This document shows positions 2,797-54,363 of a stretch of 64,000 nt of DNA, piece after piece. This stretch comes from a virus. Lineage: Duplodnaviria > Caudoviricetes. The notes beneath the pieces were generated by a model, which was given only the letters and a program-made list of their open reading frames with translations, did no database searches and was not told where the DNA came from. Each line of letters opens with the position of its first letter. Position 1 is the stretch's first letter. Where the stretch lies: IMG/VR virus record IMGVR_UViG_3300006467_000134, positions 41,609-105,608 of that record, one strand, 5' to 3'. The position numbers and the translations under genes are program-made.

Positions 2797-3058
2797 CCGA
2801 TTCTTCCTCCAGAGTCGCAAAAGTGTCATACCCTAAAAGACGGTCCAGCTGGAAGTAGATTACCATGGCCGCCTGACCAGTGAGTAACTTGACATCCAAA
2901 ACTTCACCATCGTTGTCATAGGTCACAAGACCAAAGACGTTGTAGTCGATACCATCCATCGAATCGATCCCCACTACCACAAGATCAACATTGTTGTACA
3001 ACATTACCTTGTTTTGGGGATCTAGTGCTTTCTGGAGGTACTGGTTAATTTTTTTCAT
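2774..3058 (-). CDS. Hypothetical protein
   Basis: 94 aa ORF overlapping both neighbours in the operon. Confidence 0.7.
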   Translation of the reverse strand: MKKINQYLQKALDPQNKVMLYNNVDLVVVGIDSMDGIDYNVFGLVTYDNDGEVLDVKLLTGQAAMVIYFQLDRLLGYDTFATLEEESDDDDELE

Positions 3059-3401: not shown

Positions 3402-3723
3402 GAATTTTCTCCCACTGCTGGTAGACTCGATTTATAAAGGTAAAGGAAACTGGTTCCTTCCACTCCAGTATAGCGTCGTCATTATTAGGATTTAAGGTCC
3501 CAATCAACTTACCTTCGAGAAGAATCTTGTAAGTATCGGGAAGATGCTCGCATTTTTCCAACACTGGTTCTGGATTGCAGGTGCAGTAGCTCATCTCTGT
3601 CATACCAGGTCCAATCAACAATCCATCGAAGTCCAAACAAAAATGCCAGCCCTTGCTCATCTCGCCGACTGTAAGACATTCGTCCTGGTTTTCTATTAGA
3701 GAAAAGTACCTAAAATCATCCAT
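3391..3723 (-). CDS. Hypothetical protein
   Basis: Likely start ATG 3723 (MDDFRY), overlapping the upstream stop; fills the operon gap. Confidence 0.6.
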   Translation of the reverse strand: MDDFRYFSLIENQDECLTVGEMSKGWHFCLDFDGLLIGPGMTEMSYCTCNPEPVLEKCEHLPDTYKILLEGKLIGTLNPNNDDAILEWKEPVSFTFINRVYQQWEKIRAK

Positions 3724-4525
3724 TCCAATTTTCCCACACTGGTTTATTCTCACGCTTCTCAGCCAACCAATCTTTGAAGGACATCCCGAGCAGTTGTTCT
3801 TCAGTCTGCCCGTCTTCAAGTGGAAGTGTCTCGTTCTCGATTGCCTGGAATACTGTGGTTGAGAGAGCTGTTGCTGCATTCCAATACATCTCTTCACCCG
3901 GATACCAGAGTGTTCGCATGTTCAACGAACCTTTGTCAATCAACAGGAATAGTGTTCCCTCTTTGTCGATGATCTTCTGGGTGATAGACGCCTGCGACTT
4001 GTAGCCCGGCATGAGATCAGACGCAGTTTTGGTTTGTTGAAACTTGTCAGAACCCATCGTCTTGATTTCCAGATGGAGAAGCTCACCTGGATCCTCTGGC
4101 AGTTCCTTCGGTGTTGTTGCTCCCAAGGCCTTCATGAAGTCTTTGGCCAACAATCCGTCTAATCTACCTGAGAACCTGTACAAAGGATCGAAGATTCGAA
4201 TTTCTTTGTACTTGGGAGTATCGTACTGTGGAAATAGTACGCCTGCAGCATGAAGCTTTTCCTGAACATACTCATGAACCACATTACCAATCGTGGTGTG
4301 AAGCATACTGGTCCAGGTTTGGTTCCATGGTTTTGGATCCCAGTAGTCCAAAACAAACTGGGTTGCTGTGTTGTAGTAGATACCAGACAGCCACAGGTTG
4401 TCTCGGCGAAACTTGTCACCTGGATCTTCCTGGGTAGTCAAAACACGTTTAATCTCTGCAGCTGTTACAGGAGCCAACTTACGCTTCTGCTTTTCCTTTT
4501 GCTTATAGACATCACCAAATGCCAT
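3716..4525 (-). CDS. PD-(D/E)XK exonuclease (Cas4/RecB-like)
   Basis: IGNVVHEYVQ, FSGRLDGLL, HLEIKT, YKSQ motifs; start 4525 overlaps the NUDIX stop. Confidence 0.75.
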   Translation of the reverse strand: MAFGDVYKQKEKQKRKLAPVTAAEIKRVLTTQEDPGDKFRRDNLWLSGIYYNTATQFVLDYWDPKPWNQTWTSMLHTTIGNVVHEYVQEKLHAAGVLFPQYDTPKYKEIRIFDPLYRFSGRLDGLLAKDFMKALGATTPKELPEDPGELLHLEIKTMGSDKFQQTKTASDLMPGYKSQASITQKIIDKEGTLFLLIDKGSLNMRTLWYPGEEMYWNAATALSTTVFQAIENETLPLEDGQTEEQLLGMSFKDWLAEKRENKPVWENWNG

Positions 4526-5142
4526 TACAGTCCCCTCTCGATTAGAATCTGTGACCAACTTTCGTACTTGTCTTTGTTAGCCATAATGTTTTCAACACTG
4601 TCCCAGCCGGCATCACCAAGATCTGCCTCATGTGTTTTCAATTCGGGATTCGTGCACACTACGGCGAATACCAATCCCAGGTGTACTTCACCGACTTCGT
4701 CGGAGTTATCGTTGATCACATCAATTGCTGGAGTGATTCGATAATTCCTGACGTCTCCTATGCTGATCTGAAGCTCTTCCCACAATTCTCGTTGTAGTCC
4801 ATTGTAGAATGTGTCTCGGAAGCTTCCGTCATAGTCACTTTGGTTGATGTGGCCGCCAAACCCAAGGCTGTATTTTTTGTGAAGCCTCTGTTCACCACCA
4901 CCTTTACCCCGTTGGTACCGGAAGTACTGGTTATCATGTACTAAAACAATGTATGGGATTAGTTGTTTGAACTCAGGGGCTTTTTCGGCAAACTCTCGGG
5001 GCATGAAGGTAGTCATACCGCTATTGAGCAGTTGATTTACGATTCCAACAGCCCGATCCTTATCGTTGGTGACTTTTACTGCGTCATCCAAAACTTCGTT
5101 GACAAACTGCGTTGGTACAACCAGCACTTGTTCATCGCTCAT
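4525..5142 (-). CDS. NUDIX-family phosphoesterase
   Basis: KQLIPY...RGKGGGEQRLHKKYSLGFGGHIN...GLQRELWEEL...VGEVHLG...YESWS. Confidence 0.85.
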   Translation of the reverse strand: MSDEQVLVVPTQFVNEVLDDAVKVTNDKDRAVGIVNQLLNSGMTTFMPREFAEKAPEFKQLIPYIVLVHDNQYFRYQRGKGGGEQRLHKKYSLGFGGHINQSDYDGSFRDTFYNGLQRELWEELQISIGDVRNYRITPAIDVINDNSDEVGEVHLGLVFAVVCTNPELKTHEADLGDAGWDSVENIMANKDKYESWSQILIERGL

Positions 5143-5482
5143 TAATCAGTTCCTCAAAATCTACCTGAGGCATCATCACCCAGGTTCCTGGTGTTCCAAA
5201 AGGCGGACTTTCCAACTGCAGAAGTAGTCCTGGTCGTTTGCCGGCTTCCCGGGCTTCTCTGTTAATCTTGGCTAGTTGTGTAGCAGAAATTGTCAACGAA
5301 TACCTGCAGGTGTACTTACTATCGAGAAGGAAGTCTTTTACTCGAATGTCACCTTTCTGAGCAGGAAGAGCACCAGAAAGGGGGACTCTCGTCCCCCCAA
5401 GATCCTGTGCTTGTTTTTGTTCCCGCCTGTTGGCATCGGTCTTTCGATCTCTACTCGGTCCCAGCTTCCCTTTCTTCGTCAT
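5132..5482 (-). CDS. Holliday junction resolvase-like (Hjc-type) nuclease
   Basis: REQKQAQDLGGTRVPLSGA...KGDI...LLDSKYT; adjacent to RecA; GGAGGA before ATG 5482. Confidence 0.7.
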   Translation of the reverse strand: MTKKGKLGPSRDRKTDANRREQKQAQDLGGTRVPLSGALPAQKGDIRVKDFLLDSKYTCRYSLTISATQLAKINREAREAGKRPGLLLQLESPPFGTPGTWVMMPQVDFEELINER

Positions 5483-6539
5483 CTGGTCCTCCAGTAATGA
5501 GAGAATAGACCATTGAGCGAACGTACGCATAAAAGGCTGGGTCGTTCATACGGTCCTTGAAGTCATCCTGAACTCGGTATTCCTCACCCAAGATATTCCA
5601 AACCTTCCCATCCTTGTAGCACCAGTTTGCCTGGCTTTTTACGATGTTCCACAAAGTCTTTTGATTGTCAACATATCCGGCAGGATGTCCATCAACAGGC
5701 TGTGTAGCCATGTCGAAGCTAAACACTGCTTTTGGTCTGGCAGTCTTATTCTTATGAAGTAGACCGCCAAAGGTTCCCATACCAAAGTTCTTTGTTCCAT
5801 CCTTCTGTAGGTTACCTCTGTTCATGTAGGTAATCGTAGACGAATAGAAGATCTGACCATTGCCTCCCGGAATAGTTCTTGGGTCGCCCATCATTGTGAT
5901 CTTATGGCGAAACTGATTCAATCCGATAAGGGTTGTGTTAAGCCATGGAGTATCTTTCTGCTTGGCATCAATACCAGCTTGGGTCCACTGACGATAGCCT
6001 TCATTCAAGACTCTGGCTCGTCCCCCTAGTCCAGCAGATTCTTCTGCCGAAATTTCGGTCTGCTTTTTACTCATCACTGGTTCCCACGAGTCGCCAATGA
6101 TTAGAGATACTCGCCGGCCTAGAATGATGTTCTTGACAATGTCAATTAACTGCTCACCAAAGGACGGCTGAATCACAATGAAGTGATCCTCATGGTTTCG
6201 TCCACAAAGAACACCGTTCGCCCGAGCCCACTCTTCGTCGAAAGTGTTTTCAAGGTCAACAAAGGCTACTTTACAGGGATCGGAATAACTGGCATCGAAC
6301 TTTCCAGTCTGCCGGTTAATCTTCTGAACCTCTGCCGCGGTTTTGAGAGCCAAGGTGGTTTTAGCACTAGATTCCCAACCAACAATCAGATGATTCAATC
6401 CGGCTTTGAAGCCTCCTCCGAGAGCTTGATCATAGGCTACAACTCCCGAAGAAAACCGGAATCCTTCACTGGATTGGTCTAGGCGAACAGTGTCACCATA
6501 GGCTGTTCCAAGATCTTTTCGGAGATCGTCCAAGCTCAT
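5451..6539 (-). CDS. recA: RecA/UvsX-like recombinase
   Basis: SSGVVAYDQALGGG, GWESSAKTT (Walker A), FVDLENTFD, LIIGDS, LNQFRHKI, GDPRTIPGGNG. Confidence 0.9.
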   Translation of the reverse strand: MSLDDLRKDLGTAYGDTVRLDQSSEGFRFSSGVVAYDQALGGGFKAGLNHLIVGWESSAKTTLALKTAAEVQKINRQTGKFDASYSDPCKVAFVDLENTFDEEWARANGVLCGRNHEDHFIVIQPSFGEQLIDIVKNIILGRRVSLIIGDSWEPVMSKKQTEISAEESAGLGGRARVLNEGYRQWTQAGIDAKQKDTPWLNTTLIGLNQFRHKITMMGDPRTIPGGNGQIFYSSTITYMNRGNLQKDGTKNFGMGTFGGLLHKNKTARPKAVFSFDMATQPVDGHPAGYVDNQKTLWNIVKSQANWCYKDGKVWNILGEEYRVQDDFKDRMNDPAFYAYVRSMVYSLITGGPDDEEREAGTE

Positions 6540-6868
6540 TAAATAAGTCCTCGGTCTTTCAGAATCTGTTCAAACTCAGCCAACGTGGGTTCCAAGGCTG
6601 CCTCTACCTTAGCATTGGCGACCGCAGTAGCTGCATCGATTTCTTCTAAGTAGGAAGGAACGGTTACCATGACGTCAATACGAATACTATTGAAGTCACC
6701 CAGATTTTTGGTTAGGCCTGCCTTTACGCTCACGGACGCTGTTGGTACATCTTGGAATGTAAAGACTTCCACTTTCTCCGAATCATCCTCAAAGGTGTCC
6801 AGGACCTTACCGTAGCTCGTTTTGGTGTAAACTCGTTCTACGGACAATTTACTTGGGATTTCTTTCAT
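6539..6868 (-). CDS. Hypothetical protein
   Basis: 109 aa ORF with GLTKNLGDFNSIRIDV; translationally coupled to its neighbours. Confidence 0.75.
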   Translation of the reverse strand: MKEIPSKLSVERVYTKTSYGKVLDTFEDDSEKVEVFTFQDVPTASVSVKAGLTKNLGDFNSIRIDVMVTVPSYLEEIDAATAVANAKVEAALEPTLAEFEQILKDRGLI

Positions 6869-8163
6869 AACTTCCTTTCTTTGAAGCCGAGACCGGCAAA
6901 CTGCTTTCGTATCTTCCAGCTAATGGCAATGAGATAATCAGTTTGCACAATAGGGTATAGAACGTAGGGAGCCCGCTTGTCTTTGTTTTTGCGGGTTATC
7001 CTACCGGCGACCTGCTCAATATCGCCAAAGGGGGTACAACAGACCAGCGTGTCTAGCTCTGGGAGATCTACACCCTCGGCAAACTTTCGTTCTGTTGACA
7101 GAATAATTGGGTAATCGCGTAACTTGTCTTTATCGCTTTTCTTGGTTTTACCTGAGTACATTATAGAGTTTAGCCCACGGGAATCAAGGGCTATTTCCAA
7201 TAGTTCAAGTTGTCGAGTCCGGTGGCTGATTACAAGAACCTTTCGCCCGGCTTCCACCATCTTGGCAATATGGCTACAAAGCAACCAATTGTACTCTTCG
7301 TTCTCGGCAAGTACTGTCAGATATTTCGAGTGATTGACTTTCCCCCGATGTTTTACCTCATCTTCATCAATCTTCAGGTTGACTGGAAGAAACGAGACAT
7401 ATCGGTTCTTTTCTTGATTCTTGTCTTTAAACTTCTGGCCAACAGGACCCATGTGAACCTGCCAAACTCTATCCAGTTTGTCGCGTCGTCTCCAGGTAGC
7501 ACTTACTCCCAATCGGTACATTGAGGGGATTTTCTTAAGAATATTTTGAATAGTGTCACAGGGACTGTGGTGACCTTCATCAAATATTGTCAATCCGAAG
7601 TGCTCAAGAAATCCTGGAGGTAGGCTTCCTAGCTTGGGTCCGAGGCTCTGCATCGTCGCTACGGCTACAGGCTTCTGCCAGTCCCACTTTTCAATATCCC
7701 CCTGGATAATCCCCCAATCAACACCGAAGAGCTTCTCAGCGGTATCCCCCCACTGATCGATCAAGCTGGATTGATTTACAATCACCAGTGCATTTGTAGA
7801 CAGCCTCTCGGCAACATGAATACCAATGAAAGTCTTACCAAATCCAGTATGAGCCCACAGTAGGTGCGATCCATGGTTTTCCATGCCGGCCATGCACTGC
7901 TGGACTGCCTCCCATTGTTGGTCGCGATACTCGTGTTCCAAGTTTGGCCAGGCTACAATTGGGCAGGAGGCAAGGTTACGCCCCTGTAGACCTTGCCTAC
8001 GTGCCCAGTATACTGGAAGCCCAATCATATTGTCCTGGAGCTCCCAACAATCAACTATCTTATCTCCGACAAAGTCGGATCCAGTAACACGCAGCTCTTT
8101 CTTGATGAACCGCATATCAACATTTTTTTGCTCGGTCCAATATAGACCTTCGTAGTAGCTCAT
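6865..8163 (-). CDS. Superfamily 2 DNA helicase (UvsW/ResIII-like)
   Basis: AHTGFGKT, IFDEGHH, GVSAT, EGVDLPELD, EQVAGRITR. Confidence 0.92.
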   Translation of the reverse strand: MSYYEGLYWTEQKNVDMRFIKKELRVTGSDFVGDKIVDCWELQDNMIGLPVYWARRQGLQGRNLASCPIVAWPNLEHEYRDQQWEAVQQCMAGMENHGSHLLWAHTGFGKTFIGIHVAERLSTNALVIVNQSSLIDQWGDTAEKLFGVDWGIIQGDIEKWDWQKPVAVATMQSLGPKLGSLPPGFLEHFGLTIFDEGHHSPCDTIQNILKKIPSMYRLGVSATWRRRDKLDRVWQVHMGPVGQKFKDKNQEKNRYVSFLPVNLKIDEDEVKHRGKVNHSKYLTVLAENEEYNWLLCSHIAKMVEAGRKVLVISHRTRQLELLEIALDSRGLNSIMYSGKTKKSDKDKLRDYPIILSTERKFAEGVDLPELDTLVCCTPFGDIEQVAGRITRKNKDKRAPYVLYPIVQTDYLIAISWKIRKQFAGLGFKERKL

Positions 8164-44772: not shown

Positions 44773-44808
44773 TTACTGGCTCCTATGGATAGATTGGTTA
44801 TTAAGAGA

Positions 44809-46980
44809 CTATGCCCAAGTATGGGAAACGCCCGGAGTTCCAGCTACAACGACCCACAAGGTTGATGTCACCGCTTCCAGAGTCAGGGCCGAATTAGCTG
44901 CCATCGTGATTGACCCGCCAGTACCGGCAGTTGTCGAATCAGCCCCACCGACTACCTGAACACTTGCTGGCTGGGCAATCGTCACCGTTCCGCCTGCTGA
45001 AATATATTGGTGTCTTTGTCCAACTTCTGCAGTTGTCGGCAACGTGTAGGTCGTTGTACCAGTGGCGGAAATGTACGACTCACCCGGCAGCGTCGTTTTG
45101 TCAGCGTTTCGAACCTGAGTCTTTGGCGTCGACAGTCCTCGATAGAATCCAGACACTCGCCCAGACACATCGTTGTAGGAGTTTTGCAGCGACAGGACGT
45201 TTCCGCTGGACTTCACGCCATAGCTGCCGTCTTGGTCATCGCCAAGGAACTTAAACCACTCGTAGGGCCTGCTAGGGTTCGACGCGATAGATGTATCGTG
45301 CGTACTGATCCTGAATCGCTCATTCCCGTTAATGTCAAAGAACTTGAACGCGTTGACGTTTCCTTCTGTGTTCGGATTCGGGAGAAACTGTAAAACAGAA
45401 TTAACCTTATCGTATTCTACGGTAAACGCTTTTTCTCGCGTTCCTAGGTTAAGTTTATCGGTGAAAATTTCGGCGTTGGCAATGTCATAAAATGAATAGC
45501 GGTTAGGTCCAATCATAAGACAAGACAGCTCACTAAGCATCATTGCGGACAAGTAGTCATTTGCAGTATCTGGCAAATGCGTTCCGTCACCTTCCCAGCT
45601 CAAATCTGTTAATGCCGAATACGTCTTAAAATGCCGGTAGGCGTCAAACCAATACAGCCCACGATCCTCAGCATATTGGCGAACAAGTGCGTTTTCTGCG
45701 TATGTGTCGTTCTCAGTTTCGGCCCCTGTGTCTGAACTGTCAGGCGATGTCAGTATCAATACAAATTCAGTGTTCGCCGCAGCAATAACTGCATCTAGAT
45801 AATTTATGAATCCGCCTGTTTCATAGCGGGCAACATTCTCCTTGTTCTCGCAGAACCAAAGCGTTGGACACACGTCTGCCAACATCGCATCACGAGTAGA
45901 AGTATCCCAGTCCAAATAATCCTCAAAATTCATGCCGCCGCGTTGCATACTGTGTTCAACGAAAGCGTTCTTCGACAGAGCATTGAAGATTACCCGAGTT
46001 ATCCTAACACGACCGCCTGATACGTGGACCGCCTTGATACCTCGTGAGCCGAAATCACTCCTAAGAAGGATTCGACCGTATGTCGTGGTTGGGTTGTCGC
46101 AGTCAATCGACGTGTAGCCTGTGATGTCAGACCATGAACTTGGCGATCCTTCGTCGGTGCTTTCCTGCAACTTGAAGATTCCAGCTCCCGATTCCTTCAC
46201 GTAATAGACAACGATGAAATCGCATTCTGGGTTGTTTCCATTTACGCTATAGGCAGCTTCACCTCCACTACCAATAGAAGTATAGGTTCCAGCGAAGTTT
46301 ACTTCGTAGTCGTATTCCTTGCCGCTGGTGCCATCTGCATCCCATGCGTCGCCAGACAGCGACTTAGTTTGAAGGTAAATATCTTTTTCAAAAGTCGCCG
46401 CCCACTTGGCTCGAAATTGGTTGTATACTTTTGGGGCAACACTGTCTCCGGTTGAACCAGTTACAAGCTGTGCCTTTAGCGTGGCAGTGATTGTCCCTGT
46501 TGCCGGTGTGGTTGGCGTTTGGTCGGTGGCCATCTCGCAAGTGAAAGTCGTGCTACTTGGAACCGTCAAGATTCGCCAACCGTTGTTGTAGTCAGTTTCG
46601 TTTGCACCAGAGATCAGCACCGAATCGCCAACAATGAACAGGTGGTCAGTCGCGGTCGTGACAGTCATAGTTGTGCCGGATCGCGTGATACTCGATACGG
46701 AAACTGCAGATTGCGTAGTATTCACAATGTCCAGTTTACGCATAGTACGTTTGAAATTCTTCAAAGGTGCGTTGGCATCTACTAAGAAAGAGGAGTCTCT
46801 AAGAGTTTCTGCAATCTGCTTGAGGTTCTCGTTTAGGAGAATTTTTCCCTCCATAGAGTCAATTGACATCTCTTGTCGAAAGAGTCCCAACATCTCATAC
46901 GCAATACCATGTGACTGCATAAGAGGAGTAGGAGAGGTTGCTCCGGGGGAGGCGTCTGGGTAACGTGTCCAGTCTGACAT
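44809..46980 (-). CDS. Head fibre/decoration-like protein with SGNH-hydrolase-like domain
   Basis: N-terminus shared with 47032-47499; SITRSGTTMTVTTATDH...GDSVLISGA beta domain; GDS...GG...DGTHL SGNH-like blocks. Confidence 0.6.
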   Translation of the reverse strand: MSDWTRYPDASPGATSPTPLMQSHGIAYEMLGLFRQEMSIDSMEGKILLNENLKQIAETLRDSSFLVDANAPLKNFKRTMRKLDIVNTTQSAVSVSSITRSGTTMTVTTATDHLFIVGDSVLISGANETDYNNGWRILTVPSSTTFTCEMATDQTPTTPATGTITATLKAQLVTGSTGDSVAPKVYNQFRAKWAATFEKDIYLQTKSLSGDAWDADGTSGKEYDYEVNFAGTYTSIGSGGEAAYSVNGNNPECDFIVVYYVKESGAGIFKLQESTDEGSPSSWSDITGYTSIDCDNPTTTYGRILLRSDFGSRGIKAVHVSGGRVRITRVIFNALSKNAFVEHSMQRGGMNFEDYLDWDTSTRDAMLADVCPTLWFCENKENVARYETGGFINYLDAVIAAANTEFVLILTSPDSSDTGAETENDTYAENALVRQYAEDRGLYWFDAYRHFKTYSALTDLSWEGDGTHLPDTANDYLSAMMLSELSCLMIGPNRYSFYDIANAEIFTDKLNLGTREKAFTVEYDKVNSVLQFLPNPNTEGNVNAFKFFDINGNERFRISTHDTSIASNPSRPYEWFKFLGDDQDGSYGVKSSGNVLSLQNSYNDVSGRVSGFYRGLSTPKTQVRNADKTTLPGESYISATGTTTYTLPTTAEVGQRHQYISAGGTVTIAQPASVQVVGGADSTTAGTGGSITMAANSALTLEAVTSTLWVVVAGTPGVSHTWA

Positions 46981-46991: not shown

Positions 46992-47025
46992 AAAAACAAA
47001 AAGAGAGCCTCTATTACAGAGGCTC
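46992..47025 (-). terminator. Intrinsic terminator
   Basis: GAGCCTCT-GTAAT-AGAGGCTC followed by TCTTTTTGTTTTT on the minus strand. Confidence 0.75.
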
Positions 47026-47031: not shown

Positions 47032-47499
47032 TTACGCCAAAATATCCCATTCGCCGGTTGCACCTGCTACCAAAGTAACAGAAGCGTTATCAGCCAACGA
47101 AGCAAGAGTTCCATTGATCGTAGCAGCAGTGGAGACCGTCCACGAGTTACCGGATACGTTGTTGATCCGCAGGATCTTGCCAACATCAGCAGCAGCTGGG
47201 CTGTGCAGAGTCAAAGTTTTGCTCGCACCGGCAGTCAGTCGAATGTAGGTACCAAAGTCAGCGGATACCGTAGTGTAATCATCTGTCTTAGATTGAATCG
47301 TGAGTTTGAACAAGCTCAGCATCGTCTCAGCGATCTGCTTAAAGTTCTCGTTCAAAAGAATTTTGCCGTTTTCCGAGTCTACCGAGTCTGTCATGTTGAA
47401 CAGAGCCAACATTTCATACGCATATCCATTTGCAGACATGAACGTAGTAGGCGAGGTAGCTTGGGCAGTGGCGTCATCAAAACCGGGCCAAACTGGCAT
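47032..47499 (-). CDS. Capsid decoration/fibre-like protein
   Basis: First structural gene after the capsid and HNH genes; paralogous to both ends of 44809-46980. Confidence 0.65.
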   Translation of the reverse strand: MPVWPGFDDATAQATSPTTFMSANGYAYEMLALFNMTDSVDSENGKILLNENFKQIAETMLSLFKLTIQSKTDDYTTVSADFGTYIRLTAGASKTLTLHSPAAADVGKILRINNVSGNSWTVSTAATINGTLASLADNASVTLVAGATGEWDILA

Positions 47500-47522: not shown

Positions 47523-47599
47523 ATGGCTGCCATCATCAGGCACTGCCCACCACGGTCAGTGCGAAACAAGGCAGTCCGAAGACTGCCCTGCTTTTCGGC
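47523..47599 (-). ncRNA. Type II hammerhead ribozyme (downstream of HNH), predicted cleavage UUC^ between 47563 and 47562
   Basis: Minus strand: GCC-GAAA-AGCAGGGCAGTC-TTCG-GACTGCCTTGTT-TC^-GCACTG-ACCGTGGTGGG-CAGTGC-CTGATGA-T-GGC-A-GCCAT. The full core is present, with one extra U after A9. Loop I GUGGU can pair with the 3' GCCAU. Confidence 0.82.
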
Positions 47600-47601
47600 T
47601 T

Positions 47602-48267
47602 TTATTCAGGGAAATTTAGGTAGGCAAATTCACCAAACAGCTCTTTTGCTTTTTCATCATAAGCCTTTGCAGCTTCCAGTGCTGTATTGAACCTACCAAG
47701 ATGGTGAATTTTTCCCTTATGCTGGAGTCTAGCAATATATTGATACTTGGTTTTGTTCTTCATTAGGCGTTTAGTTACTCCTTTATAACCAGATTTACAG
47801 TTTTTCTGCGGACCTGAATTTAAAACGTTTTGAGTCAAAGAGCATAAACGCAAGTTCGACTTTCTATTGTTTAGTGGGTTTCTATCAATATGATCCACTA
47901 TTTCATCGGGAAGAAGGGATCTTCCTAAAGAAAGCTCCATTACCAATCTATGAAGTTTCGTCGGTCTGGGTCTATGTGAAAAACCGTACCCATTTTGTAG
48001 GTGCCAGTTCTGCTTATAAAGTGTATCCCAATATTCGGGATCTACCAAAAGCTTATCTCCTGCTTTAGTGTATATAACAGATTTATCTTCTTGATCTGGA
48101 AAATTCAAAGGGAGATAAGGACTAATATCTTTGGCCTTTTTATCGTAGGCTCTGGCAGCTTCCTCAGGGGTTGGAAATGTGCCAAGATAATGGCGTTTCT
48201 TGTCTACTTGAATTTCAGCGGCAAATTTCCCATCTTTTTTGGGCCATACACCACGTAACTTTTTCAT
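47602..48267 (-). CDS. AP2-HNH-AP2 homing endonuclease
   Basis: RGV...YLGTFPTPEEAARAYD (AP2); LHRLVM...VDHIDRNPLNNRKSNLR (HNH); YKGV...HLGRFNTALEAAKAYD...FAYLNF (AP2); AT-rich. Confidence 0.92.
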   Translation of the reverse strand: MKKLRGVWPKKDGKFAAEIQVDKKRHYLGTFPTPEEAARAYDKKAKDISPYLPLNFPDQEDKSVIYTKAGDKLLVDPEYWDTLYKQNWHLQNGYGFSHRPRPTKLHRLVMELSLGRSLLPDEIVDHIDRNPLNNRKSNLRLCSLTQNVLNSGPQKNCKSGYKGVTKRLMKNKTKYQYIARLQHKGKIHHLGRFNTALEAAKAYDEKAKELFGEFAYLNFPE

Positions 48268-48281
48268 TTTACTTCCTTTGT

Positions 48282-48354
48282 AACCTATGACTCATCAGGA
48301 GGCTTTCGGTCGATAGCCTCGACTAAGAAGACAGTAAGTCTTCTTAGTTTCGTC
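48282..48354 (-). ncRNA. Type II hammerhead ribozyme (between capsid gene and HNH), predicted cleavage GUC^ between 48321 and 48320
   Basis: Minus strand: GAC-GAAA-CTAAGAAGAC-TTACT-GTCTTCTTAG-TC^-GAGGCT-ATCGACCGAA-AGCCTC-CTGATGA-GTC-ATA-GGTT. Canonical core with perfect stems I, II and III. Loop I GACC can pair with the 3' GGUU. Confidence 0.92.
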
Positions 48355-48381: not shown

Positions 48382-49437
48382 CTAACTAGGGTCAGTCGGG
48401 TTGTGATTAACTGGAGCCGTACCAGCCGAGCAGATGCCAGTAGCTGGCGTTCCGCACAGACGCAGGTTCTTAACCAGGACAACCATGTCAGGGTTTTCAA
48501 CCATGAAGTCAGCTTCCCACCACATGGTGTATTCGAAGCTGTCACAACGAGGCTTACGTTCACGCTCAATCGACAATTCGCGACCGGTAACGTAGATCAG
48601 GTTGCTCAATGGCGTGTAAACCATGTAAGTACCGTCAGTTTCCCCGCCACCATTGTCCAGGTTTTCTGGCCAGTTGTTAACGCGGAAGACAGATTCACCA
48701 AGTGGGTTGACGCCTTGGCCGCCACTCAGGATGATCTGATCACCCAGGTTGGTAGCTCGGCTGGTCAACTGCTGTACCCATCGGTTGTACAGGCGAGGAC
48801 CCAGTACCCATCGATACTGATCCAATTCGCTCAAATACTCAACAGGGATGCGGTTCTGGATTTCGAACAACAGTTCGGTAGAGATACCAGCACCAGCAGC
48901 GTCGATAATTTGGGTGGAGGGAACGCAAGACTTCAACAGACGGATGAAACCGTCGTTAACGCCCAACAGGTTGTTCAGATCGGATTGACTGTCGCCAGTA
49001 GGAATAGCGGTGTCGCCCATAACAGCGGCACGTTCCATGTCAACAGCAATACGCTTCTGGAATTGACCCAGCAACGTTTGGGTTACTTGCTCCCGTTCGA
49101 CGTTGTAACGCAGGAAGTCACTCTTTACCGAAAAGAAGCTTCCATACTTTTCCAAGTCGTAGGTCAGCATCGAGTCGGTAGGACGAGATTCCTGAGGGCA
49201 GCTCGTAGCATGAGCACCCTGAGAAACAACACCACCGAGGTCCAGACGGTGGATCTTACCTTTACGGTTGTCCACTCGCATGGTACGAATATTTTGCAAC
49301 AGGTTTGAGGTGTTGCGAACCATGTCGAAGAAACGGTCGGACTGAGTCCGATCCAACATGGCGTTAGGGTTGGTTGCTTCGCTGATCGGGATTTGACAGC
49401 CCTTAATCAGATCAACCATTTCAAGTTTGCCACTCAT
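48382..49437 (-). CDS. Major capsid protein (HK97 fold)
   Basis: LDRTQSDRFFD, DFLRYNVER, IAVDMERAAVMGD, NDGFIRL, TPLSNLIY; follows the protease gene. Confidence 0.92.
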   Translation of the reverse strand: MSGKLEMVDLIKGCQIPISEATNPNAMLDRTQSDRFFDMVRNTSNLLQNIRTMRVDNRKGKIHRLDLGGVVSQGAHATSCPQESRPTDSMLTYDLEKYGSFFSVKSDFLRYNVEREQVTQTLLGQFQKRIAVDMERAAVMGDTAIPTGDSQSDLNNLLGVNDGFIRLLKSCVPSTQIIDAAGAGISTELLFEIQNRIPVEYLSELDQYRWVLGPRLYNRWVQQLTSRATNLGDQIILSGGQGVNPLGESVFRVNNWPENLDNGGGETDGTYMVYTPLSNLIYVTGRELSIERERKPRCDSFEYTMWWEADFMVENPDMVVLVKNLRLCGTPATGICSAGTAPVNHNPTDPS

Positions 49438-49449
49438 CAAGTGTTTTCC

Positions 49450-50910
49450 TTATACGAAAAATTGGCCGAACAAGTCCTGGTCAGTCACTTCGCCGCTGTC
49501 GCCCTTAGCGACTTCTCGGCGTTCCTCACGGTTGGTCAAGTTGATCTTCAGGAGACCAGACAGATCATTCAAGATTTCACTCTTGATGGCTTCTGCCAAT
49601 TCTTCTGCGGATTCTTGAGCAGGTGCTGACTCTTGCTTAGGGGGATCTTGTTCTTGTTCTTGAGAGGGCAATCGAGCTTCAAAAGCTTCGAATCGCTTGT
49701 TGAAGTCATCCTGCATTTTAGCCAACTGGGCTACCAGGGCATCATTTGCAGAAGGTTCTTGTGTTGGTTCTTGAGTTGCTTCAGCAGCTGGTTCAGTGGC
49801 CTTAGCAGGTTCTGCAGGAGCAGCCTGTAGTGCTTCAAAATCAGCTTCTTGCAAATCAATGTGTACAACTTCTTGCTTTGCTGCTTCACCTTCTTCATTG
49901 GTGATTTCTTCCGACTTCAGAACTTCCTTTTTGCAATTTGGGAAGTACTTGTCGATCAGACCTTCATCAACCAGGCAGACTCGCAAGGACTTAACTACTT
50001 GAGTTTCTTCACTCACAGTGTTATCCTCTACTGGAATATCATTAAGTTCGCCGACTTGCTCGGCATTAGAAGAATCATGATCTAATCGTGCAGCAGTGAC
50101 GACCGAAACATCACCTAGCTTAACTAGGTAACTCTTTTCGATGTCAAACTGAGCCTGGTCTTGAACCACAGCAAAGTAGTCCGTGTCATTCTCAGTGATG
50201 GATGTATATTCAATTCCCCGAGCCTGTAAATAAGCTTTCGCTACATCAACAGTTGGGTAGTAACTCTTGGACAGTTTGAATTTGATAATCTCAGTAGGCA
50301 CAGCCTCAGAGGTTTCAAAATCAACAGATTTTCCAATAGTCAGGGCAGACGAAGTGTGCTGCGGCATGTGTACGATACTGATTTCCTTGAGGTCAATCAT
50401 CTTCAGTAGGTCATAAGGTTGTCCGATATCGACACCTTTAACCAACTGAACAAGACCACGCCAGGAAAATGCACCTAGATGCCCTTTCAGTACTTCCTCT
50501 TTGGCCAAATCATTTGTTACTTCTGCAACAACAAAGAGTCCGCGGTCACCGACTTTCAAATCGGGGTAGCGTTTTACAGGAAGTCGATTAATGACTTCCA
50601 TGTTTCTAGCAGAAGAGATAACAAACTCATCGTCCTCTTGGTCGGAAATAAAGGCAGCTTCAGCCTCCCTGACTACACCTGCAGAAACATCATTCCCGTG
50701 AGGGTCTTTGATGAACTTGTGATCCCGCAGCAAAGTACCAGTGTTGAGAAATGTGTCAACATTGAACTCGGAAGCAGGAGCGAAGTGATTTTGTCGATCA
50801 GGAGACTCAACAGAAGCAAAACCCTTAACGAATACCGACTGATCCGATTCTTGAATGTCCGCAGCTAACGCTGAAGAACCTTCAATCATTTCGTAGGTTG
50901 GTAGAGACAT
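49450..50910 (-). CDS. Prohead maturation protease with scaffold-like C-terminus
   Basis: VKGFASVESPDRQ, LLRDH, GLFVVAE, GAFSWRG, DLKEISIV; acidic coiled-coil tail. Confidence 0.88.
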   Translation of the reverse strand: MSLPTYEMIEGSSALAADIQESDQSVFVKGFASVESPDRQNHFAPASEFNVDTFLNTGTLLRDHKFIKDPHGNDVSAGVVREAEAAFISDQEDDEFVISSARNMEVINRLPVKRYPDLKVGDRGLFVVAEVTNDLAKEEVLKGHLGAFSWRGLVQLVKGVDIGQPYDLLKMIDLKEISIVHMPQHTSSALTIGKSVDFETSEAVPTEIIKFKLSKSYYPTVDVAKAYLQARGIEYTSITENDTDYFAVVQDQAQFDIEKSYLVKLGDVSVVTAARLDHDSSNAEQVGELNDIPVEDNTVSEETQVVKSLRVCLVDEGLIDKYFPNCKKEVLKSEEITNEEGEAAKQEVVHIDLQEADFEALQAAPAEPAKATEPAAEATQEPTQEPSANDALVAQLAKMQDDFNKRFEAFEARLPSQEQEQDPPKQESAPAQESAEELAEAIKSEILNDLSGLLKINLTNREERREVAKGDSGEVTDQDLFGQFFV

Positions 50911-52655
50911 TAAGTTTGCTCACTTTCAGGATCAACATTATCATCCGTAGATGGAGGAGTATCCTGCGTTTGAGTCGCTGTTTGGTCTACAGCAGTCGTT
51001 GGTAAATCATTTAAATCCTGAATCTTCAAAATCTGTCCACCAGATGTGCGGAGGAAGTTAACATTACCACCAGGAATGGATTCCATTCCAAGGTTAGTAC
51101 GAACTTCATTGATATCCTTAACACCATTCAACAAGTACATTTGATCAACTTCAGCCTGCATTCGCATATCGCGAACATCGTAAGGATCAAACTTGATGTA
51201 GCTGTGAATAATTCCCAGGCCTTTAGAGAGTAGCCTGTAGATTTGGTTTTGCCAGTATTTCTGGCGAGGTGTTACGATACGATCTTTGTACAGTTCAGCT
51301 TGAGACAATCCTTTACCTGAGCCAAGCTCTGCGGACTCAGCGATACCAAGAATTGCTGGGCTTGTTCCATGAGCTACCTGAATAGCTTGTGAGTTTGCTT
51401 TGTAAGTCTCAAGGAAGTCTGCTTCCTTTCGATCAGCCTCAACTCGTTCGAACTTTACAGAGACAGTCTTTCCGGCTCTATGTGGAATCGCCAATACCAT
51501 TGTCTTATGGTATTGACCACGTACTTCCTTCGAAAAGTATTCCGTAATCGTCTTGCGGAACTCTGCATCGACATTGGCACCCTCAACAATAACAGCATAT
51601 CGTGGTACTGTATTGTTGTCGAAGAATTGACTAGTATAGTCTTTGATTCGGGTGTTCGTTTGAATCGCTGAGAGAGCTGGTATTGCATCACAGAAGCCAT
51701 AGTAGATAGTATTAGGGTGTGAGTTAACTAACCACAAAACTTCATTTGCTGATTCCAAGACATTATCAGTAGTTTCTCCAGTTTTTGGATCTACGAGGTT
51801 CCACTCGGCTTTAGCCTTATCCAACGGCCCGTGCTTGACTGGGTCGTACGGTTCATAATAATCACGTTTCTTGGATCCGACTTTAATTGATTTTCGTACA
51901 CGAACCTTCTCACCGAAATTCTGATAGTAGGTATATTGCGTTGTACCATTGACATCGCTCTCCTCTACAAAACCTTCCCAGTTACGAAGGACTTTTATCC
52001 TAGCAGCCGGAATGTGTTGGATGTGCTCGATCTTTTTCGTGATGGGGTTACGAGTAACCTCGATAGCAGCCCATCCAATAGCTTCCCAATCTTGGGCTGC
52101 ATTTCGGAGAACTTCTTCAAATCCCAACCGCGGATTGCAGTCATGGATAAAGGTTCTAATCTCTTCCAGTTCGGAATTGAACAACGACTTTGGAATTACT
52201 TCCTGACCCTCAGCTAGCTGTTCAATCTCGTCGTCCTCGATGACCTTTTTGAAGGAGTCAATCGTGTAGTTTCGATTTACAGCATCTGTGACTTTGGTTC
52301 GTACTGCTCGGTAGTGAACTTCATTAGTGTGTAAAAGATCAGCTACTTTTCGTGGGCAGTATGGAGGATCAATAACGTGCCATTTACCTTGCAGAGCATA
52401 ATGGTAAATGTCTGACTGATTAATCTCATCTGCACTCTGATTTAACCCTTCGATACCTTTAAGAACTTCTGTTCTTTTAAAGCCAGGGATATCAATTTCG
52501 GTGTAGGTATCCACCTTTCTGGTGGAAAGACCACTCCAAATTTCAGAGATTCCCTTTGCTAGGTCAGCAGATAAGGTGAAGTGAACTTCTCCGTCAGAGC
52601 CTTCAGTAATGAAGCCAGTGACTACAGGCTCTTCGAATTCAGTTGTTTGCTTCAT
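50910..52655 (-). CDS. Portal protein
   Basis: IDPPY, DWEAIGWAAIEVTR, HIPA, YYG, FFDNNTVP, AHGTSPAILG, INEVRTNLG..SIPGG. Confidence 0.92.
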   Translation of the reverse strand: MKQTTEFEEPVVTGFITEGSDGEVHFTLSADLAKGISEIWSGLSTRKVDTYTEIDIPGFKRTEVLKGIEGLNQSADEINQSDIYHYALQGKWHVIDPPYCPRKVADLLHTNEVHYRAVRTKVTDAVNRNYTIDSFKKVIEDDEIEQLAEGQEVIPKSLFNSELEEIRTFIHDCNPRLGFEEVLRNAAQDWEAIGWAAIEVTRNPITKKIEHIQHIPAARIKVLRNWEGFVEESDVNGTTQYTYYQNFGEKVRVRKSIKVGSKKRDYYEPYDPVKHGPLDKAKAEWNLVDPKTGETTDNVLESANEVLWLVNSHPNTIYYGFCDAIPALSAIQTNTRIKDYTSQFFDNNTVPRYAVIVEGANVDAEFRKTITEYFSKEVRGQYHKTMVLAIPHRAGKTVSVKFERVEADRKEADFLETYKANSQAIQVAHGTSPAILGIAESAELGSGKGLSQAELYKDRIVTPRQKYWQNQIYRLLSKGLGIIHSYIKFDPYDVRDMRMQAEVDQMYLLNGVKDINEVRTNLGMESIPGGNVNFLRTSGGQILKIQDLNDLPTTAVDQTATQTQDTPPSTDDNVDPESEQT

Positions 52656-52659
52656 TCTT

Positions 52660-54363
52660 TTATCCAATGGTTAGGCAATCTGCCGATAAAGTATCTTGGT
52701 TCATTTCGTTGTGAGCTAGGATGTCATATACGTCAGCATGACGAGAGTGATCCTGGTTGGATCCAACCCATTCATTCTTTGGGTTGCCTTTTTTGTCCTC
52801 AGTATAATTTCTTACCAAGGCCTTCATTTCCTTTAAGTAATCACCACCGTAGACAAACTCAACACCTTGGGGTAGTTGATTTCTCTTAGACCTTAGTTGT
52901 GCATATCCGCGGTCTAATGCTTCAGTACGATCAATGGAAATGATCATGTCGTTGTAATTGTACTTCTGAGTACGGTCAGTACCCTCACCCAAGTATTTAC
53001 AACGCCAAACGACACAATTGGCTTCCTTTTGGAAGTCTTGAGCTAACTTCGACTCAGGGCCTGAGTCAATGACTGCTACCTTGACATTGTATCTCTCGAT
53101 GAGATTGTGAAGGTCAGCCCAGCCAGTAGTTGTATCCAGTTTTCCAAAGAATACTGCTTGTCGCTTACCCTTTACTGATCTACTAATACGAACGTCTAAC
53201 CTACTAGGAGCGACGTCAATACCCATTGAGCAAGGTTCCTCAACACTATCGGATGGTATGTAGGACATCTCAGGAAGATGTACCATCTCGATACCTGTAG
53301 CACATTGCTTAAGGAGATCGCCAGTAACAGAGTTACCTTGGGCTGAGAATGGCAAACCAAGACGCATATTGTAAAAATAACGCATCTTGGAGGGGTTGGT
53401 TAACCCAGCCTGAAACTCTGCATAAAGTTCAGCAACGGTAACCAGGGGAGAGACGATAGAAGGAACATGATACCCTTCAATGTTCTCGGGACTGTGGGCA
53501 TGTGGTAGCCAATGACAGTCATCGTCAAAACGTTGAACGATTCCTTCTGAGCAGTGAGGACATTTGATATAAATATCTCTCCCACAACCTGGCGTCCACT
53601 CTTTATCCCGCAGTTGATAACTGACAATGCTGCCAGCACTATCCTTAATAGGATCAACTACAGTTTCAAACCAGTCCATATTACAGAACTTACCGCACGA
53701 ATCACATGGAGCCATCCATCTTCTCTGATCCGACTTCAGAAACATCTGGTGGATCTTACCATCTGGAGTGGATGGGTTCGATAGGTAGATCTGAAACTTG
53801 TACTGGCTGGACGCCAGGCGTGACATTCCTAACTCAACATTTTCCCAGGTTTGTACCTGGTCAGTTTCGTCAACGCAGTAGAGATCGCCGGCAAATTCAA
53901 CGAAATCAGACTCTACATTAGCTCCAACAAAGCGAAGCATTCCCTTACCAAAGGACAGAGTGACAGTCGAGTTCATGTTACCATCGCGAACAATCGACTG
54001 GTATTCAGTAGATTGGTTGATTGGCCTTTTTACCCGTGAAAGTACGTATGATTCTTTCATTTCGTACTTAGGCAAAATACAGAACACATTGCACCCACAA
54101 TATGCAGTTGCTAACATGTTGATGACCATGAATTCAGACTTACAAATCTGAGCAGCTCCCATCAAGACCATGTGAGGGCTTAATGATTCGTACCATGCAA
54201 TGCAATGCTTGAACTTCTGGAAATCCATTGGTTCGTTACGAGTTGTCTTGTGGTACTCAGTTGCGAACCTAATCCTTGTGTTTCGGATCTCGATCAATCG
54301 TGATAACTTCTTCAGCTCCACTTCGCTCAGATCCAACACTGCGTTCGTCAAGTTGCTCGACAT
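52660..54363 (-). CDS. terL: Terminase large subunit (GpA-like)
   Basis: GAAQICKSE, VDETD, SNPS, SDQRRW..PC..C, FYNMRLGLPF, MGIDV, DHSRHA. Confidence 0.92.
   Translation of the reverse strand: MSSNLTNAVLDLSEVELKKLSRLIEIRNTRIRFATEYHKTTRNEPMDFQKFKHCIAWYESLSPHMVLMGAAQICKSEFMVINMLATAYCGCNVFCILPKYEMKESYVLSRVKRPINQSTEYQSIVRDGNMNSTVTLSFGKGMLRFVGANVESDFVEFAGDLYCVDETDQVQTWENVELGMSRLASSQYKFQIYLSNPSTPDGKIHQMFLKSDQRRWMAPCDSCGKFCNMDWFETVVDPIKDSAGSIVSYQLRDKEWTPGCGRDIYIKCPHCSEGIVQRFDDDCHWLPHAHSPENIEGYHVPSIVSPLVTVAELYAEFQAGLTNPSKMRYFYNMRLGLPFSAQGNSVTGDLLKQCATGIEMVHLPEMSYIPSDSVEEPCSMGIDVAPSRLDVRISRSVKGKRQAVFFGKLDTTTGWADLHNLIERYNVKVAVIDSGPESKLAQDFQKEANCVVWRCKYLGEGTDRTQKYNYNDMIISIDRTEALDRGYAQLRSKRNQLPQGVEFVYGGDYLKEMKALVRNYTEDKKGNPKNEWVGSNQDHSRHADVYDILAHNEMNQDTLSADCLTIG

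What the first reader, a model, noticed from the sequence alone, without database searches (positions are those of the whole stretch)
47523..48354. Homing endonuclease gene bracketed by twin type II hammerhead ribozymes: a candidate self-excising RNA cassette in the capsid operon
Seen: both intergenic gaps around the AP2-HNH-AP2 gene are almost entirely occupied by hammerhead folds on the mRNA strand. Upstream (48354-48282) is GAC-GAAA-[10-bp stem III]-GUC^-[6-bp stem I]-CUGAUGA-GUC. Downstream (47599-47523) is GCC-GAAA-[12-bp UUCG-capped stem III]-UUC^-[6-bp stem I]-CUGAUGA-U-GGC. The two share core and topology, including a loop I / 3'-tail pseudoknot, but have completely different stem sequences, which amounts to full compensatory change. 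Established: hammerheads leave a 5'-OH and a 2',3'-cyclic phosphate, the ends that RtcB-type ligases join. Inference: double cleavage releases a 758-nt RNA (48320-47563) carrying the AAAGGAAG RBS and the whole nuclease ORF. It could be degraded (limiting toxicity in the highly expressed capsid transcript) or circularised, and the flanks could be re-ligated. That would make it an intron-like mobile element built from small ribozymes rather than a group I/II intron. Isolated phage hammerheads are known; I do not know a described hammerhead-HNH-hammerhead cassette.
Basis: partly seen in the sequence, partly recalled or inferred. Interest (0 to 1): 0.95.

Follow-up and report, generated by a model that had tools for sequence, protein, structure and literature searches.

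The report
Hammerhead ribozymes flanking phage homing endonuclease
Two convincing self-cutting hammerhead RNAs bracket a selfish nuclease gene just after a phage's capsid gene, but relatives show this is ribozyme "punctuation" of a phage operon, a pattern described in 2011, not a new kind of intron.

Summary
Two type II hammerheads lie on the mRNA strand at 48354-48282 and 47599-47523. They are the only two in the complete 105.6-kb phage genome, and they bracket its only AP2-HNH homing endonuclease gene (HEG). Cores are canonical, stems covary across relatives, and each has a loop I/3'-tail pseudoknot.

The intron-like reading is not supported.
- The upstream hammerhead is a resident element of the capsid gene's 3' end. 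It is present in relatives that lack the HEG, and it sits where more distant relatives carry an intrinsic terminator.
- A relative with a different HEG at the same site has a promoter-like sequence and no downstream hammerhead.
- 80 other AP2-HNH loci carry no hammerhead.
- The flanks are separate genes that need no re-joining.
- Nothing in the sequence brings the cut ends together.

One relative (L008) repeats the hammerhead-HEG-hammerhead layout, with an unrelated downstream ribozyme.

Hammerheads flanking single phage genes, and the splice/circle idea, were published by Perreault et al. 2011. Those authors looked for spliced and circular products and did not detect them.

Most likely the ribozymes cut the late transcript into separate capsid, HEG (758 nt) and downstream mRNAs. 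Cleavage itself is untested.

This scan holds other hammerhead-near-HNH notes on other DNA, but none among those retrieved describes a twin cassette.

The parts
48382..49440 (-). Major capsid protein gene (352 aa), the gene directly upstream of the first hammerhead
   Evidence: PHROG phrog_1623 (virion structural protein) at E 6e-58 and phrog_70 (major head protein); weak Pfam match to Phage_cap_P2. Portal gene and a 486-aa gene lie upstream.
48282..48354 (-). Upstream type II hammerhead. Predicted cut between 48321 and 48320. Includes the 3' tail GGUU (48285-48282), which can pair with loop I GACC (48311-48308).
   Evidence: Canonical core and three helices. Independent model R2 gives 61.4 bits, E 9e-14. 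Copies sit at the same position in L001, L002/L005/L006 and L008, with compensatory changes. Not found by Rfam.
47602..48267 (-). Free-standing AP2-HNH-AP2 homing endonuclease gene (221 aa), the only one in the genome
   Evidence: Pfam AP2 (52 bits) and HNH_3 (43.8 bits), both above their cut-offs; PHROG phrog_99 HNH endonuclease at E 3e-57. Single copy in the genome. GC is 37-40% against about 50% in the flanks. The D-H...N...N motif is invariant in three diverged homologues.
47523..47599 (-). Downstream type II hammerhead. Predicted cut between 47563 and 47562. One extra U lies between A9 and stem II. The tail GCCAU (47527-47523) can pair with loop I GUGGU (47553-47549).
   Evidence: Rfam RF02276 gives 35.1 bits against a gathering score of 37, full length, E 3.8e-5. 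Independent model R2 gives 34.7 bits, E 8e-7. The fold z-score is -3.5.
47032..47499 (-). Downstream 155-aa gene of unknown function. It would receive a ribozyme-made 5' end.
   Evidence: ORF. Homologues in L001 (88% identity) and L008 (52% identity). No Pfam or PHROG family. Its N-terminal 60 aa are repeated at the start of the next gene.
46995..47025 (-). Intrinsic-terminator-like hairpin plus T-run after the 155-aa gene
   Evidence: 9-bp stem with 5 G-C pairs, followed by TCTTTTTGTT.

Best explanation
Both elements are most likely working type II hammerhead ribozymes that cut the late structural transcript at gene boundaries.

The upstream ribozyme is a resident feature of this phage clade. 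It lies just 3' of the major capsid gene, where more distant relatives have an intrinsic terminator. Its cut would leave the capsid mRNA ending in the stem III hairpin, while RNA polymerase reads on.

A free-standing AP2-HNH homing endonuclease gene then landed in this intergenic site, which is a repeated landing place for such genes. It has no promoter of its own, so it is read from the capsid transcript.

The second ribozyme, which abuts the nuclease stop codon, cuts again. The nuclease message would then become a separate 758-nt RNA. It starts with a 5'-OH at the foot of a hairpin (stem I of the upstream ribozyme) and ends in a 12-bp hairpin (stem III of the downstream ribozyme) with a 2',3'-cyclic phosphate. 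The next gene would regain a ribozyme-defined 5' end.

The net effect is to uncouple the fate of three messages (capsid, nuclease, downstream gene). It is not splicing.

Shown here: the motifs, their conservation and covariation, and the gene layouts in relatives. Inferred: cleavage in vivo, and its effect on mRNA stability and translation.
For: Motif quality and rarity.

The upstream hammerhead is independent of the nuclease gene: L002, L005 and L006 have capsid, hammerhead, then the next structural gene, with no HEG.

Same position as a terminator: in relatives with 44-60% capsid identity (L009, L011, L013, L026, L028, L030) a G+C-rich hairpin, followed by a T-run in five of them (a weaker one in L030), follows the capsid stop, and no hammerhead is found.

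HEG hotspot: three different HNH genes occupy this gap. These are the window/L008 type, the L001 type at 43% identity, and the L011 type.

The twin layout recurs: L008 carries a 75%-identical HEG between two hammerheads, the second starting at the stop codon.

No sigma-70-like promoter lies between the capsid stop and the HEG start.

The cut products are held together by only about 2-5 kcal/mol beyond their separate folds, so they should part.

Precedent: hammerheads flanking single phage genes cleave in vitro and in E. coli, and processing into single-gene mRNAs was proposed (PMC3088659; review PMC6765202).

The pattern is common. In 67 IMG/VR loci the model finds 108 hammerheads. By my descriptor, 64 of 71 neighbouring same-strand pairs are 200-1000 nt apart. 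The genes just upstream of them are small accessory genes.
Against: The downstream hammerhead is just under Rfam's gathering score. It has an extra U between A9 and G10.1, which could slow it.

Rfam does not detect the upstream hammerhead, and its stem II is only 3 bp. The fold can extend it through an internal loop.

The effect of a 5'-OH end on mRNA fate depends on the host's RNases, and the host is unknown.

Only four lineages carry the upstream hammerhead and two carry the twin layout. The terminator-to-ribozyme swap therefore rests on a small sample and on no rooted tree.
Confidence: 0.6

Rival explanations
1. The nuclease gene and its 3' hammerhead travel together as a self-insulating mobile cassette. 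The selfish gene lands behind a resident ribozyme and brings or recruits a second one. The downstream host gene then keeps the processed 5' end it had before. This would be an intergenic counterpart of hiding inside an intron or intein. The RNA mechanism is the same as in the best explanation; the difference is who owns the second ribozyme.
For: Both promoter-less copies of this HEG (window and L008) have a hammerhead starting 0-2 nt after the stop codon.

L001's HEG, which is preceded by a promoter-like sequence, has none.

The two downstream hammerheads share only the core (about 40% identity). Only the window's matches Rfam RF02276. This fits repeated recruitment under selection.
Against: Only two examples are known.

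The whole region downstream of the HEG is about 50% identical between the window and L008, so plain divergence with structure kept is an equal explanation.

The downstream hammerhead has 57% GC against 37-40% in the HEG.

0 of 80 other AP2-HNH loci carry a hammerhead, and no AP2-HNH gene lies in 67 other hammerhead-rich loci.
Confidence: 0.17
2. The ribozymes mainly hold down the nuclease. Cutting off the capsid message gives the HEG RNA a 5'-OH end that marks it for decay, as with the glmS ribozyme product and RNase J1 in Bacillus. Only a little nuclease is then made from a very abundant late transcript.
For: The HEG has no promoter and sits behind the most highly expressed late gene.

The glmS/RNase J1 precedent is from my own knowledge and was not checked here.

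In the uncut fold the ribosome-binding site AAGGAAG pairs with AUUUC upstream of the ribozyme.
Against: After cleavage the 5' nucleotide is base-paired at the foot of stem I and the 3' end is a 12-bp UUCG hairpin. Such ends usually protect an RNA rather than expose it.

The upstream ribozyme exists without any HEG.

The host and its RNases are unknown.
Confidence: 0.12
3. The two ribozymes excise the HEG RNA as an intron-like unit. An RtcB-type ligase then circularises it and/or re-joins the flanking RNA.
For: Hammerhead ends (5'-OH and 2',3'-cyclic phosphate) are the substrates of RtcB ligases; this is established chemistry and is cited in PMC8782182.

In L008 the two ribozymes share stem II (GAC/GUC), so a hybrid hammerhead could form across a junction.
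Against: The flanks are separate ORFs and need no joining.

The upstream ribozyme is retained in HEG-less relatives, and L001 lacks the downstream one.

In the window the hybrid stem II has a central mismatch, and no long-range pairing brings the ends together.

Perreault et al. looked for spliced and circular products from clustered phage hammerheads and did not detect them.

A circle that rebuilt a hammerhead would tend to cut itself again (inference).
Confidence: 0.06
4. One or both motifs are inactive look-alikes or decayed relics with no role.
For: Rfam gives no match at its gathering score. The downstream copy has an extra core-adjacent U. Perreault et al. list hammerhead-like RNAs that are inactive.
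Against: All invariant core positions are intact. Stems I and III and the pseudoknot are kept through compensatory changes across lineages that are 40-80% identical. Chance expectation is about 0.
Confidence: 0.04

Closest known systems
Clustered hammerhead ribozymes flanking individual genes in prophages and phages (Perreault et al. 2011, PLoS Comput Biol, PMC3088659), for example the triple hammerhead around ardA in an Agrobacterium tumefaciens prophage
   Same: Several same-strand hammerheads, many of them type II with a loop I/3'-tail pseudoknot, sit in intergenic gaps and bracket one gene of a polycistronic phage transcript. The proposed role is processing into single-gene mRNAs. That paper already raised splicing and circularisation and found neither. 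My IMG/VR sample shows the same spacing, 200-1000 nt.
   Different: Here the bracketed gene is a homing endonuclease. No AP2-HNH gene was found in 67 other hammerhead-rich loci. The site is inside the late structural operon directly after the major capsid gene. The genes beside hammerheads elsewhere are small accessory genes such as anti-restriction, superinfection exclusion and lipoprotein genes.
Type II hammerhead ribozyme family, Rfam RF02276 (Hammerhead_II)
   Same: Open stem II, closed stems I and III, CUGANGA and GAAA cores, and a pseudoknot between loop I and the tail after stem II. The downstream copy matches the family consensus in loop I and in the tail.
   Different: The downstream copy is 1.9 bits under the gathering score, with a long stem III and an extra U. 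The upstream copy is not detected at all and belongs to a GAC...GUC stem II subtype that Rfam's model mostly misses.
Free-standing HNH homing endonuclease genes in phage intergenic regions (T4 mob and seg genes; AP2-HNH endonucleases of cyanobacteria and phages). This comparison is from my own knowledge.
   Same: An AT-rich nuclease gene with DNA-binding modules sits between conserved genes. It is present or absent among close relatives, and different nucleases occupy the same gap.
   Different: Described free-standing HEGs rely on promoters, terminators or RNA hairpins for their control. None that I know of is bracketed by self-cleaving ribozymes, and full-text searches found no such report.
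Intrinsic (Rho-independent) terminators after phage major capsid genes
   Same: They occupy the same position in relatives with 44-60% capsid identity. Both devices would leave the capsid mRNA ending in a stable hairpin.
   Different: A ribozyme makes the end after transcription and lets polymerase continue. A terminator stops part of the transcription.
Retrozymes, viroid-like circular RNAs and HEG-bearing group I introns
   Same: Ribozyme-bounded RNA units; group I introns often carry homing endonuclease genes.
   Different: There are no repeated ends and no single ribozyme rebuilt across the junction in the window. There is no interrupted host gene. The two ribozymes have separate histories.

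Membership tests
Hammerhead ribozyme, type II (Rfam RF02276) | Catalytic core: C3-U4-G5-A6-N7-G8-A9, G12-A13-A14, the A15.1-U16.1 pair and a non-G at position 17 | tested here: met
   Both copies read CUGAUGA, GAAA, the A-U pair and C17. The downstream copy has one extra U between A9 and G10.1.
Hammerhead ribozyme, type II (Rfam RF02276) | Three helices around the core, with stems I and III closed by loops and stem II open | tested here: met
   Minimum-energy folds give this topology. Stems are 6/10/3 bp and 6/12/3 bp. Across 7 sequences 91.7% of cells pair and 17 of 24 pairs change on both sides.
Hammerhead ribozyme, type II (Rfam RF02276) | Pseudoknot of 4 or more bp between loop I and the nucleotides just 3' of stem II (seen in the majority of type II examples, Perreault 2011) | tested here: met
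   GACC:GGUU upstream and GUGGU:GCCAU downstream. All 4 pseudoknot pairs change on both sides across relatives, with 82% of cells paired.
Hammerhead ribozyme, type II (Rfam RF02276) | Score at or above the family's gathering threshold (37 bits) | tested here: not met
   The downstream copy scores 35.1 bits; the upstream copy gives no type II match. At that threshold the model reported only 3 hammerheads across 10 hammerhead-bearing loci, in seven of which R1 listed about 35.
Hammerhead ribozyme, type II (Rfam RF02276) | Mg2+-dependent self-cleavage 3' of position 17 | not testable with these tools
   This needs in vitro transcription or end-specific RNA-seq.
Clustered phage hammerheads flanking single genes (Perreault et al. 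2011) | Two or more same-strand hammerheads in the intergenic gaps on either side of one gene, or a short block of genes, in a phage transcription unit | tested here: met
   Both lie on the minus strand in the two gaps around one ORF of the portal-capsid operon. The same layout occurs in L008.
Free-standing HNH homing endonuclease gene | HNH nuclease domain with intact motif, plus DNA-binding modules | tested here: met
   HNH_3 at 43.8 bits and AP2 at 52.1 bits, both above their cut-offs, with a second weaker AP2. D125-H126, N138 and N147 are invariant.
Free-standing HNH homing endonuclease gene | Patchy presence at one locus among close relatives, with foreign base composition | tested here: met
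   Absent in L002/L005/L006. Present in the window and L008. Different HEGs occupy the site in L001 and L011. GC is 37-40% against about 50%.
Free-standing HNH homing endonuclease gene | Site-specific DNA cleavage and homing into nuclease-less alleles | not testable with these tools
   This needs nuclease assays or co-infection crosses.
Intron-like self-excising element (group I/II intron analogue) | The element interrupts a host gene or RNA whose function needs the flanks re-joined, and its catalytic RNA parts come and go with the element | tested here: not met
   The flanks are complete, separate ORFs. The upstream ribozyme stays in HEG-less relatives. L001's HEG lacks the downstream ribozyme.
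Retrozyme or viroid-like circular RNA | Repeated ribozyme-bearing ends, so that one ribozyme or a stable helix forms across the ligated junction | tested here: not met
   The two hammerheads share only the core. The hybrid junction in the window has a mismatched stem II, and no end-to-end pairing appears.

The most novel reading that the evidence does not exclude
The homing endonuclease gene and the hammerhead at its stop codon form a self-insulating selfish cassette. It rides a highly expressed late transcript, is cut free by ribozymes at both ends, and restores a processed 5' end to the host's downstream gene. That would be an intergenic, RNA-level equivalent of the intron/intein strategy for harmless insertion. 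The unrelated downstream ribozymes in the window and in L008 would then reflect repeated recruitment under selection.
Probability: 0.15. Interest if true: 0.7.

Novelty: new member of a known kind. Interest (0 to 1): 0.36.

Why it matters
The biological role of most bacterial and phage hammerheads is still open (review PMC6765202). This locus gives a clean comparative case. The same gap after a major capsid gene holds an intrinsic terminator in some phages and a hammerhead in their closer kin. That makes the idea "ribozyme as a 3'-end-forming, message-uncoupling device" directly testable. The locus also shows how a selfish nuclease gene without a promoter can sit inside an essential late operon, and it offers two natural variants to compare: ribozyme-bounded, and promoter-bearing without a second ribozyme. 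It does not reveal a new class of mobile element. The general layout, and the splice/circle idea, are in the 2011 literature.

Tried and rejected
- Rfam at gathering score gave no hit on the window. This is under-detection rather than absence.
- DNA search of the region against 50,697 phage records found no match. The best capsid protein matches to isolates shown were only 23-26% identical, and all 220 matching records were below 60%, so no cultured relative could be used.
- The HEG protein alone found no IMG/VR relatives. Alignment-based scans found few capsid relatives and only L001 for the 155-aa gene.
- I tested whether hammerheads are a general companion of AP2-HNH genes. Six loci of homologues at 33-47% identity and 80 IMG/VR loci had none, so I rejected the idea.
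- I tested whether HEGs are common cargo between phage hammerheads. No AP2-HNH gene lay in 67 hammerhead-rich loci, so I rejected that too.
- Six contigs carrying the identical HEG showed no sequence variation. They give no covariation signal, only proof that the sequence is not an assembly artefact.
- Model R1 hits on the window are circular, because the model was built from those sequences. I replaced them with model R2, built without them (against 99-101).
- Literature searches for hammerhead plus homing or HNH endonuclease in phages returned nothing relevant.
Full report
WHAT IS THERE

The window is the right-hand 64 kb of a complete 105.6-kb virus record with direct terminal repeats. On the minus strand the order of features is as follows:
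- portal gene (50910-52667)
- a 486-aa gene
- the major capsid gene (48382-49440)
- a 114-nt gap
- an AP2-HNH-AP2 gene of 221 aa (47602-48267)
- a 102-nt gap
- a 155-aa gene (47032-47499)
- a terminator-like hairpin (47025-46995)

The predicted cuts fall at 48321/48320 and 47563/47562, so the excised RNA is 758 nt.

IS IT MORE THAN CHANCE?

- Both RNAs fold into the three-way junction as their minimum-energy structure, with z-scores of -3.2 and -3.5.
- Rfam's Hammerhead_II model aligns the downstream copy end to end at 35.1 bits. The gathering score is 37, and E is 3.8e-5 over the 1.1 kb searched. Its loop I and 3' tail match the family consensus.
- Rfam does not see the upstream copy. At its gathering score the same model reported only 3 hammerheads across ten hammerhead-bearing loci. 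In seven of those loci my model listed about 35.
- A descriptor scan of the whole genome, both strands, finds these two and no others. In 200 random genomes with the same dinucleotide make-up the mean is 0 at moderate or strict stem lengths and 0.135 at the loosest.
- A covariance model built from relatives and from unrelated IMG/VR hammerheads, without the window's sequences, scores 61.4 bits (E 9e-14) and 34.7 bits (E 8e-7). It finds nothing else in the genome. The first value is helped by a close orthologue in the model; the second is independent.
- Over seven hammerheads from this clade, 91.7% of pair cells are standard pairs, against 36-46% when partners are slid. 17 of 24 pairs change on both sides, and the four pseudoknot pairs covary too.
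- The region is identical in six separately assembled contigs.

WHAT THE RELATIVES SAY

Capsid homologues and their contigs fall into two groups.

Group 1: four lineages with 76-84% capsid identity. All have a type II hammerhead just after the capsid stop.
- L002, L005 and L006 have no nuclease gene and no 155-aa gene. The hammerhead is followed by the next conserved structural gene.
- L001 has the hammerhead, then a perfect TTGACT-17-TATAAT promoter-like sequence, then a different AP2-HNH gene (43% identity). It has no second hammerhead.
- L008 has the window's layout. The order is hammerhead, a 75%-identical nuclease gene, then a second hammerhead that starts right at the stop codon, then the 155-aa homologue.

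Group 2: six lineages with 44-60% capsid identity. Each has a G+C-rich hairpin directly after the capsid stop, followed by a T-run in five of them (a weaker one in L030), and no hammerhead. L011 also carries yet another HNH gene in this gap, with a terminator of its own.

Three conclusions follow.
1. The upstream ribozyme belongs to the capsid operon, not to the nuclease insert.
2. It occupies the place of a terminator.
3. The gap after the capsid gene is a repeated landing site for homing endonuclease genes.

THE SECOND RIBOZYME

Between the window and L008 the identity profile is as follows:
- upstream hammerhead: about 79% identical, with compensatory changes
- nuclease gene: falls from about 80% to about 55-65% along its length
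- downstream hammerheads: about 40%, sharing only the core
- 155-aa gene region: about 50%

Only the window's downstream copy resembles the Rfam consensus; L008's gives no RF02276 match even at E 10. Two readings fit. Either the second ribozyme was replaced or recruited twice, or it diverged at the high rate of its surroundings while its structure was kept. In both readings a hammerhead has been maintained at the nuclease gene's 3' edge in the two lineages where the gene has no promoter.

HOW GENERAL IS THE LINK?

- The genome has only one HNH/AP2 gene.
- None of 80 IMG/VR loci with AP2-HNH homologues has a hammerhead within 1.5 kb, by covariance model or by descriptor. None of the 20 tested has any Rfam family. 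Six further homologue loci also have none.
- Conversely, an exact-pattern scan for the upstream subtype returned 68 IMG/VR loci.
- The model finds 108 hammerheads in 67 of those loci, often in arrays of 5-10.
- By my descriptor, 64 of 71 neighbouring same-strand pairs are 200-1000 nt apart.
- The genes next to them are small and mostly of unknown function, with anti-restriction, superinfection-exclusion and lipoprotein genes among them.
- No AP2-HNH gene is among them.

Ribozyme-bracketed single genes are therefore common in phages. A bracketed homing endonuclease is, in this sample, peculiar to this clade.

WHAT IS KNOWN

Perreault et al. 2011 (PMC3088659) described type II hammerheads and the loop I/3'-tail pseudoknot. 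They wrote that multiple hammerheads often flank individual genes or short gene blocks in prophages. From this they inferred processing into operon-length or single-gene mRNAs, and they showed cleavage in vitro and in E. coli. They added that cleavage plus ligation could give spliced or circular RNAs, which they could not detect. A 2019 review repeats the processing and differential-stability idea and calls the function unproven (PMC6765202). Full-text searches found no report of a hammerhead-bracketed homing endonuclease.

MECHANISM

Shown:
- two intact ribozyme motifs, conserved by covariation
- no promoter-like sequence between the capsid and nuclease genes
- foreign base composition of the nuclease gene
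- a conserved HNH motif

Inferred:
- The late transcript is cut twice.
- The capsid mRNA then ends in the stem III hairpin of the first ribozyme.
- The nuclease mRNA is a 758-nt RNA whose first nucleotide is paired in stem I and whose last 30 nt form a 12-bp UUCG hairpin.
- The downstream message again starts at a stem I hairpin.
- The halves are held together by only about 2-5 kcal/mol beyond their separate folds, so they should separate.
- In the uncut upstream fold the ribosome-binding site of the nuclease gene pairs with a segment 5' of the ribozyme. This might tie translation to cleavage. The pairing is weak, and I treat it as a lead only.

SPLICING OR CIRCLES

Hybrid junction sequences were folded. 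In the window the hybrid stem II has a central mismatch in both the circle and the spliced form, and no other pairing joins the ends. In L008 the two ribozymes share stem II, so a hybrid hammerhead could form, but this is not conserved. The flanks are separate ORFs and gain nothing from being joined. With the negative result of Perreault et al., I put this reading at about 6%. It remains untested for this locus.

VERDICT

Double cleavage that releases a monocistronic nuclease RNA is likely; an intron-like ribozyme cassette is not.
- This is a new member of a known kind, with two points worth keeping. A hammerhead stands in the place of a terminator after a major capsid gene, and a promoter-less selfish nuclease gene is isolated by ribozymes on both sides.

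Noticed in passing
window 47032-47499 and 44809-46980 (minus strand): The first 60 residues of the 155-aa gene are repeated (58% identity) at the N-terminus of the following 723-aa gene. L008's 159-aa homologue matches the 723-aa protein's first 130 residues at 51% identity. This looks like a shared N-terminal anchoring module on two structural proteins.
   Followed up: partly
L001:3295-3325 and L001:4100-4185: The L001 nuclease gene is preceded by a perfect TTGACT-17-TATAAT sigma-70-like promoter placed between the hammerhead and the gene. The insertion appears to have removed the ATG of the downstream 155-aa homologue. The homologous frame now opens with ATT AGG, and the first ATG is 20 codons in.
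   Followed up: partly
L009:4051-4095, L011:4058-4105, L013:4070-4100, L026:3570-3610, L028:3575-3612, L030:3515-3560: In relatives with 44-60% capsid identity, a G+C-rich hairpin lies immediately after the capsid stop codon, with a T-run in five of them and a weaker one in L030. This is the position the hammerhead occupies in the closer clade.
   Followed up: yes
L051 (about 1640-7260), L053 (99-2551), L059 (5258-7419), L079, L073, L044: IMG/VR phage contigs carry arrays of 3-10 same-strand type II hammerheads, spaced by single small genes. Rfam's Hammerhead_II model at gathering score reports only 3 across the ten loci scanned, so the family is under-annotated in phage data.
   Followed up: partly
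L008:4923-4942: A run of about 14 C lies between the downstream hammerhead and the next gene. It may be an assembly artefact or a slippage-prone tract.
   Followed up: no
window 44773-44795; L008:5487-5505; L002:5185-5222; L009, L026: A short conserved leader of the form (A/T)CCAT..ATAGGAG precedes the conserved gene that begins MACC/MSCC in all relatives examined. It may be a shared ribosome-binding or late regulatory element.
   Followed up: no
L011:4125-4859: A third, unrelated HNH_3 gene (244 aa) sits in the same capsid-downstream gap in a distant relative. It is bounded by terminator-like hairpins rather than ribozymes.
   Followed up: partly
window 47570-47587: Stem III of the downstream hammerhead is a G+C-rich hairpin with a UUCG loop. 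Read on the plus (antisense) strand, the scan scores it as terminator-like. On the mRNA strand it is followed by UUGUUUC, so it might also pause or weakly terminate transcription.
   Followed up: no
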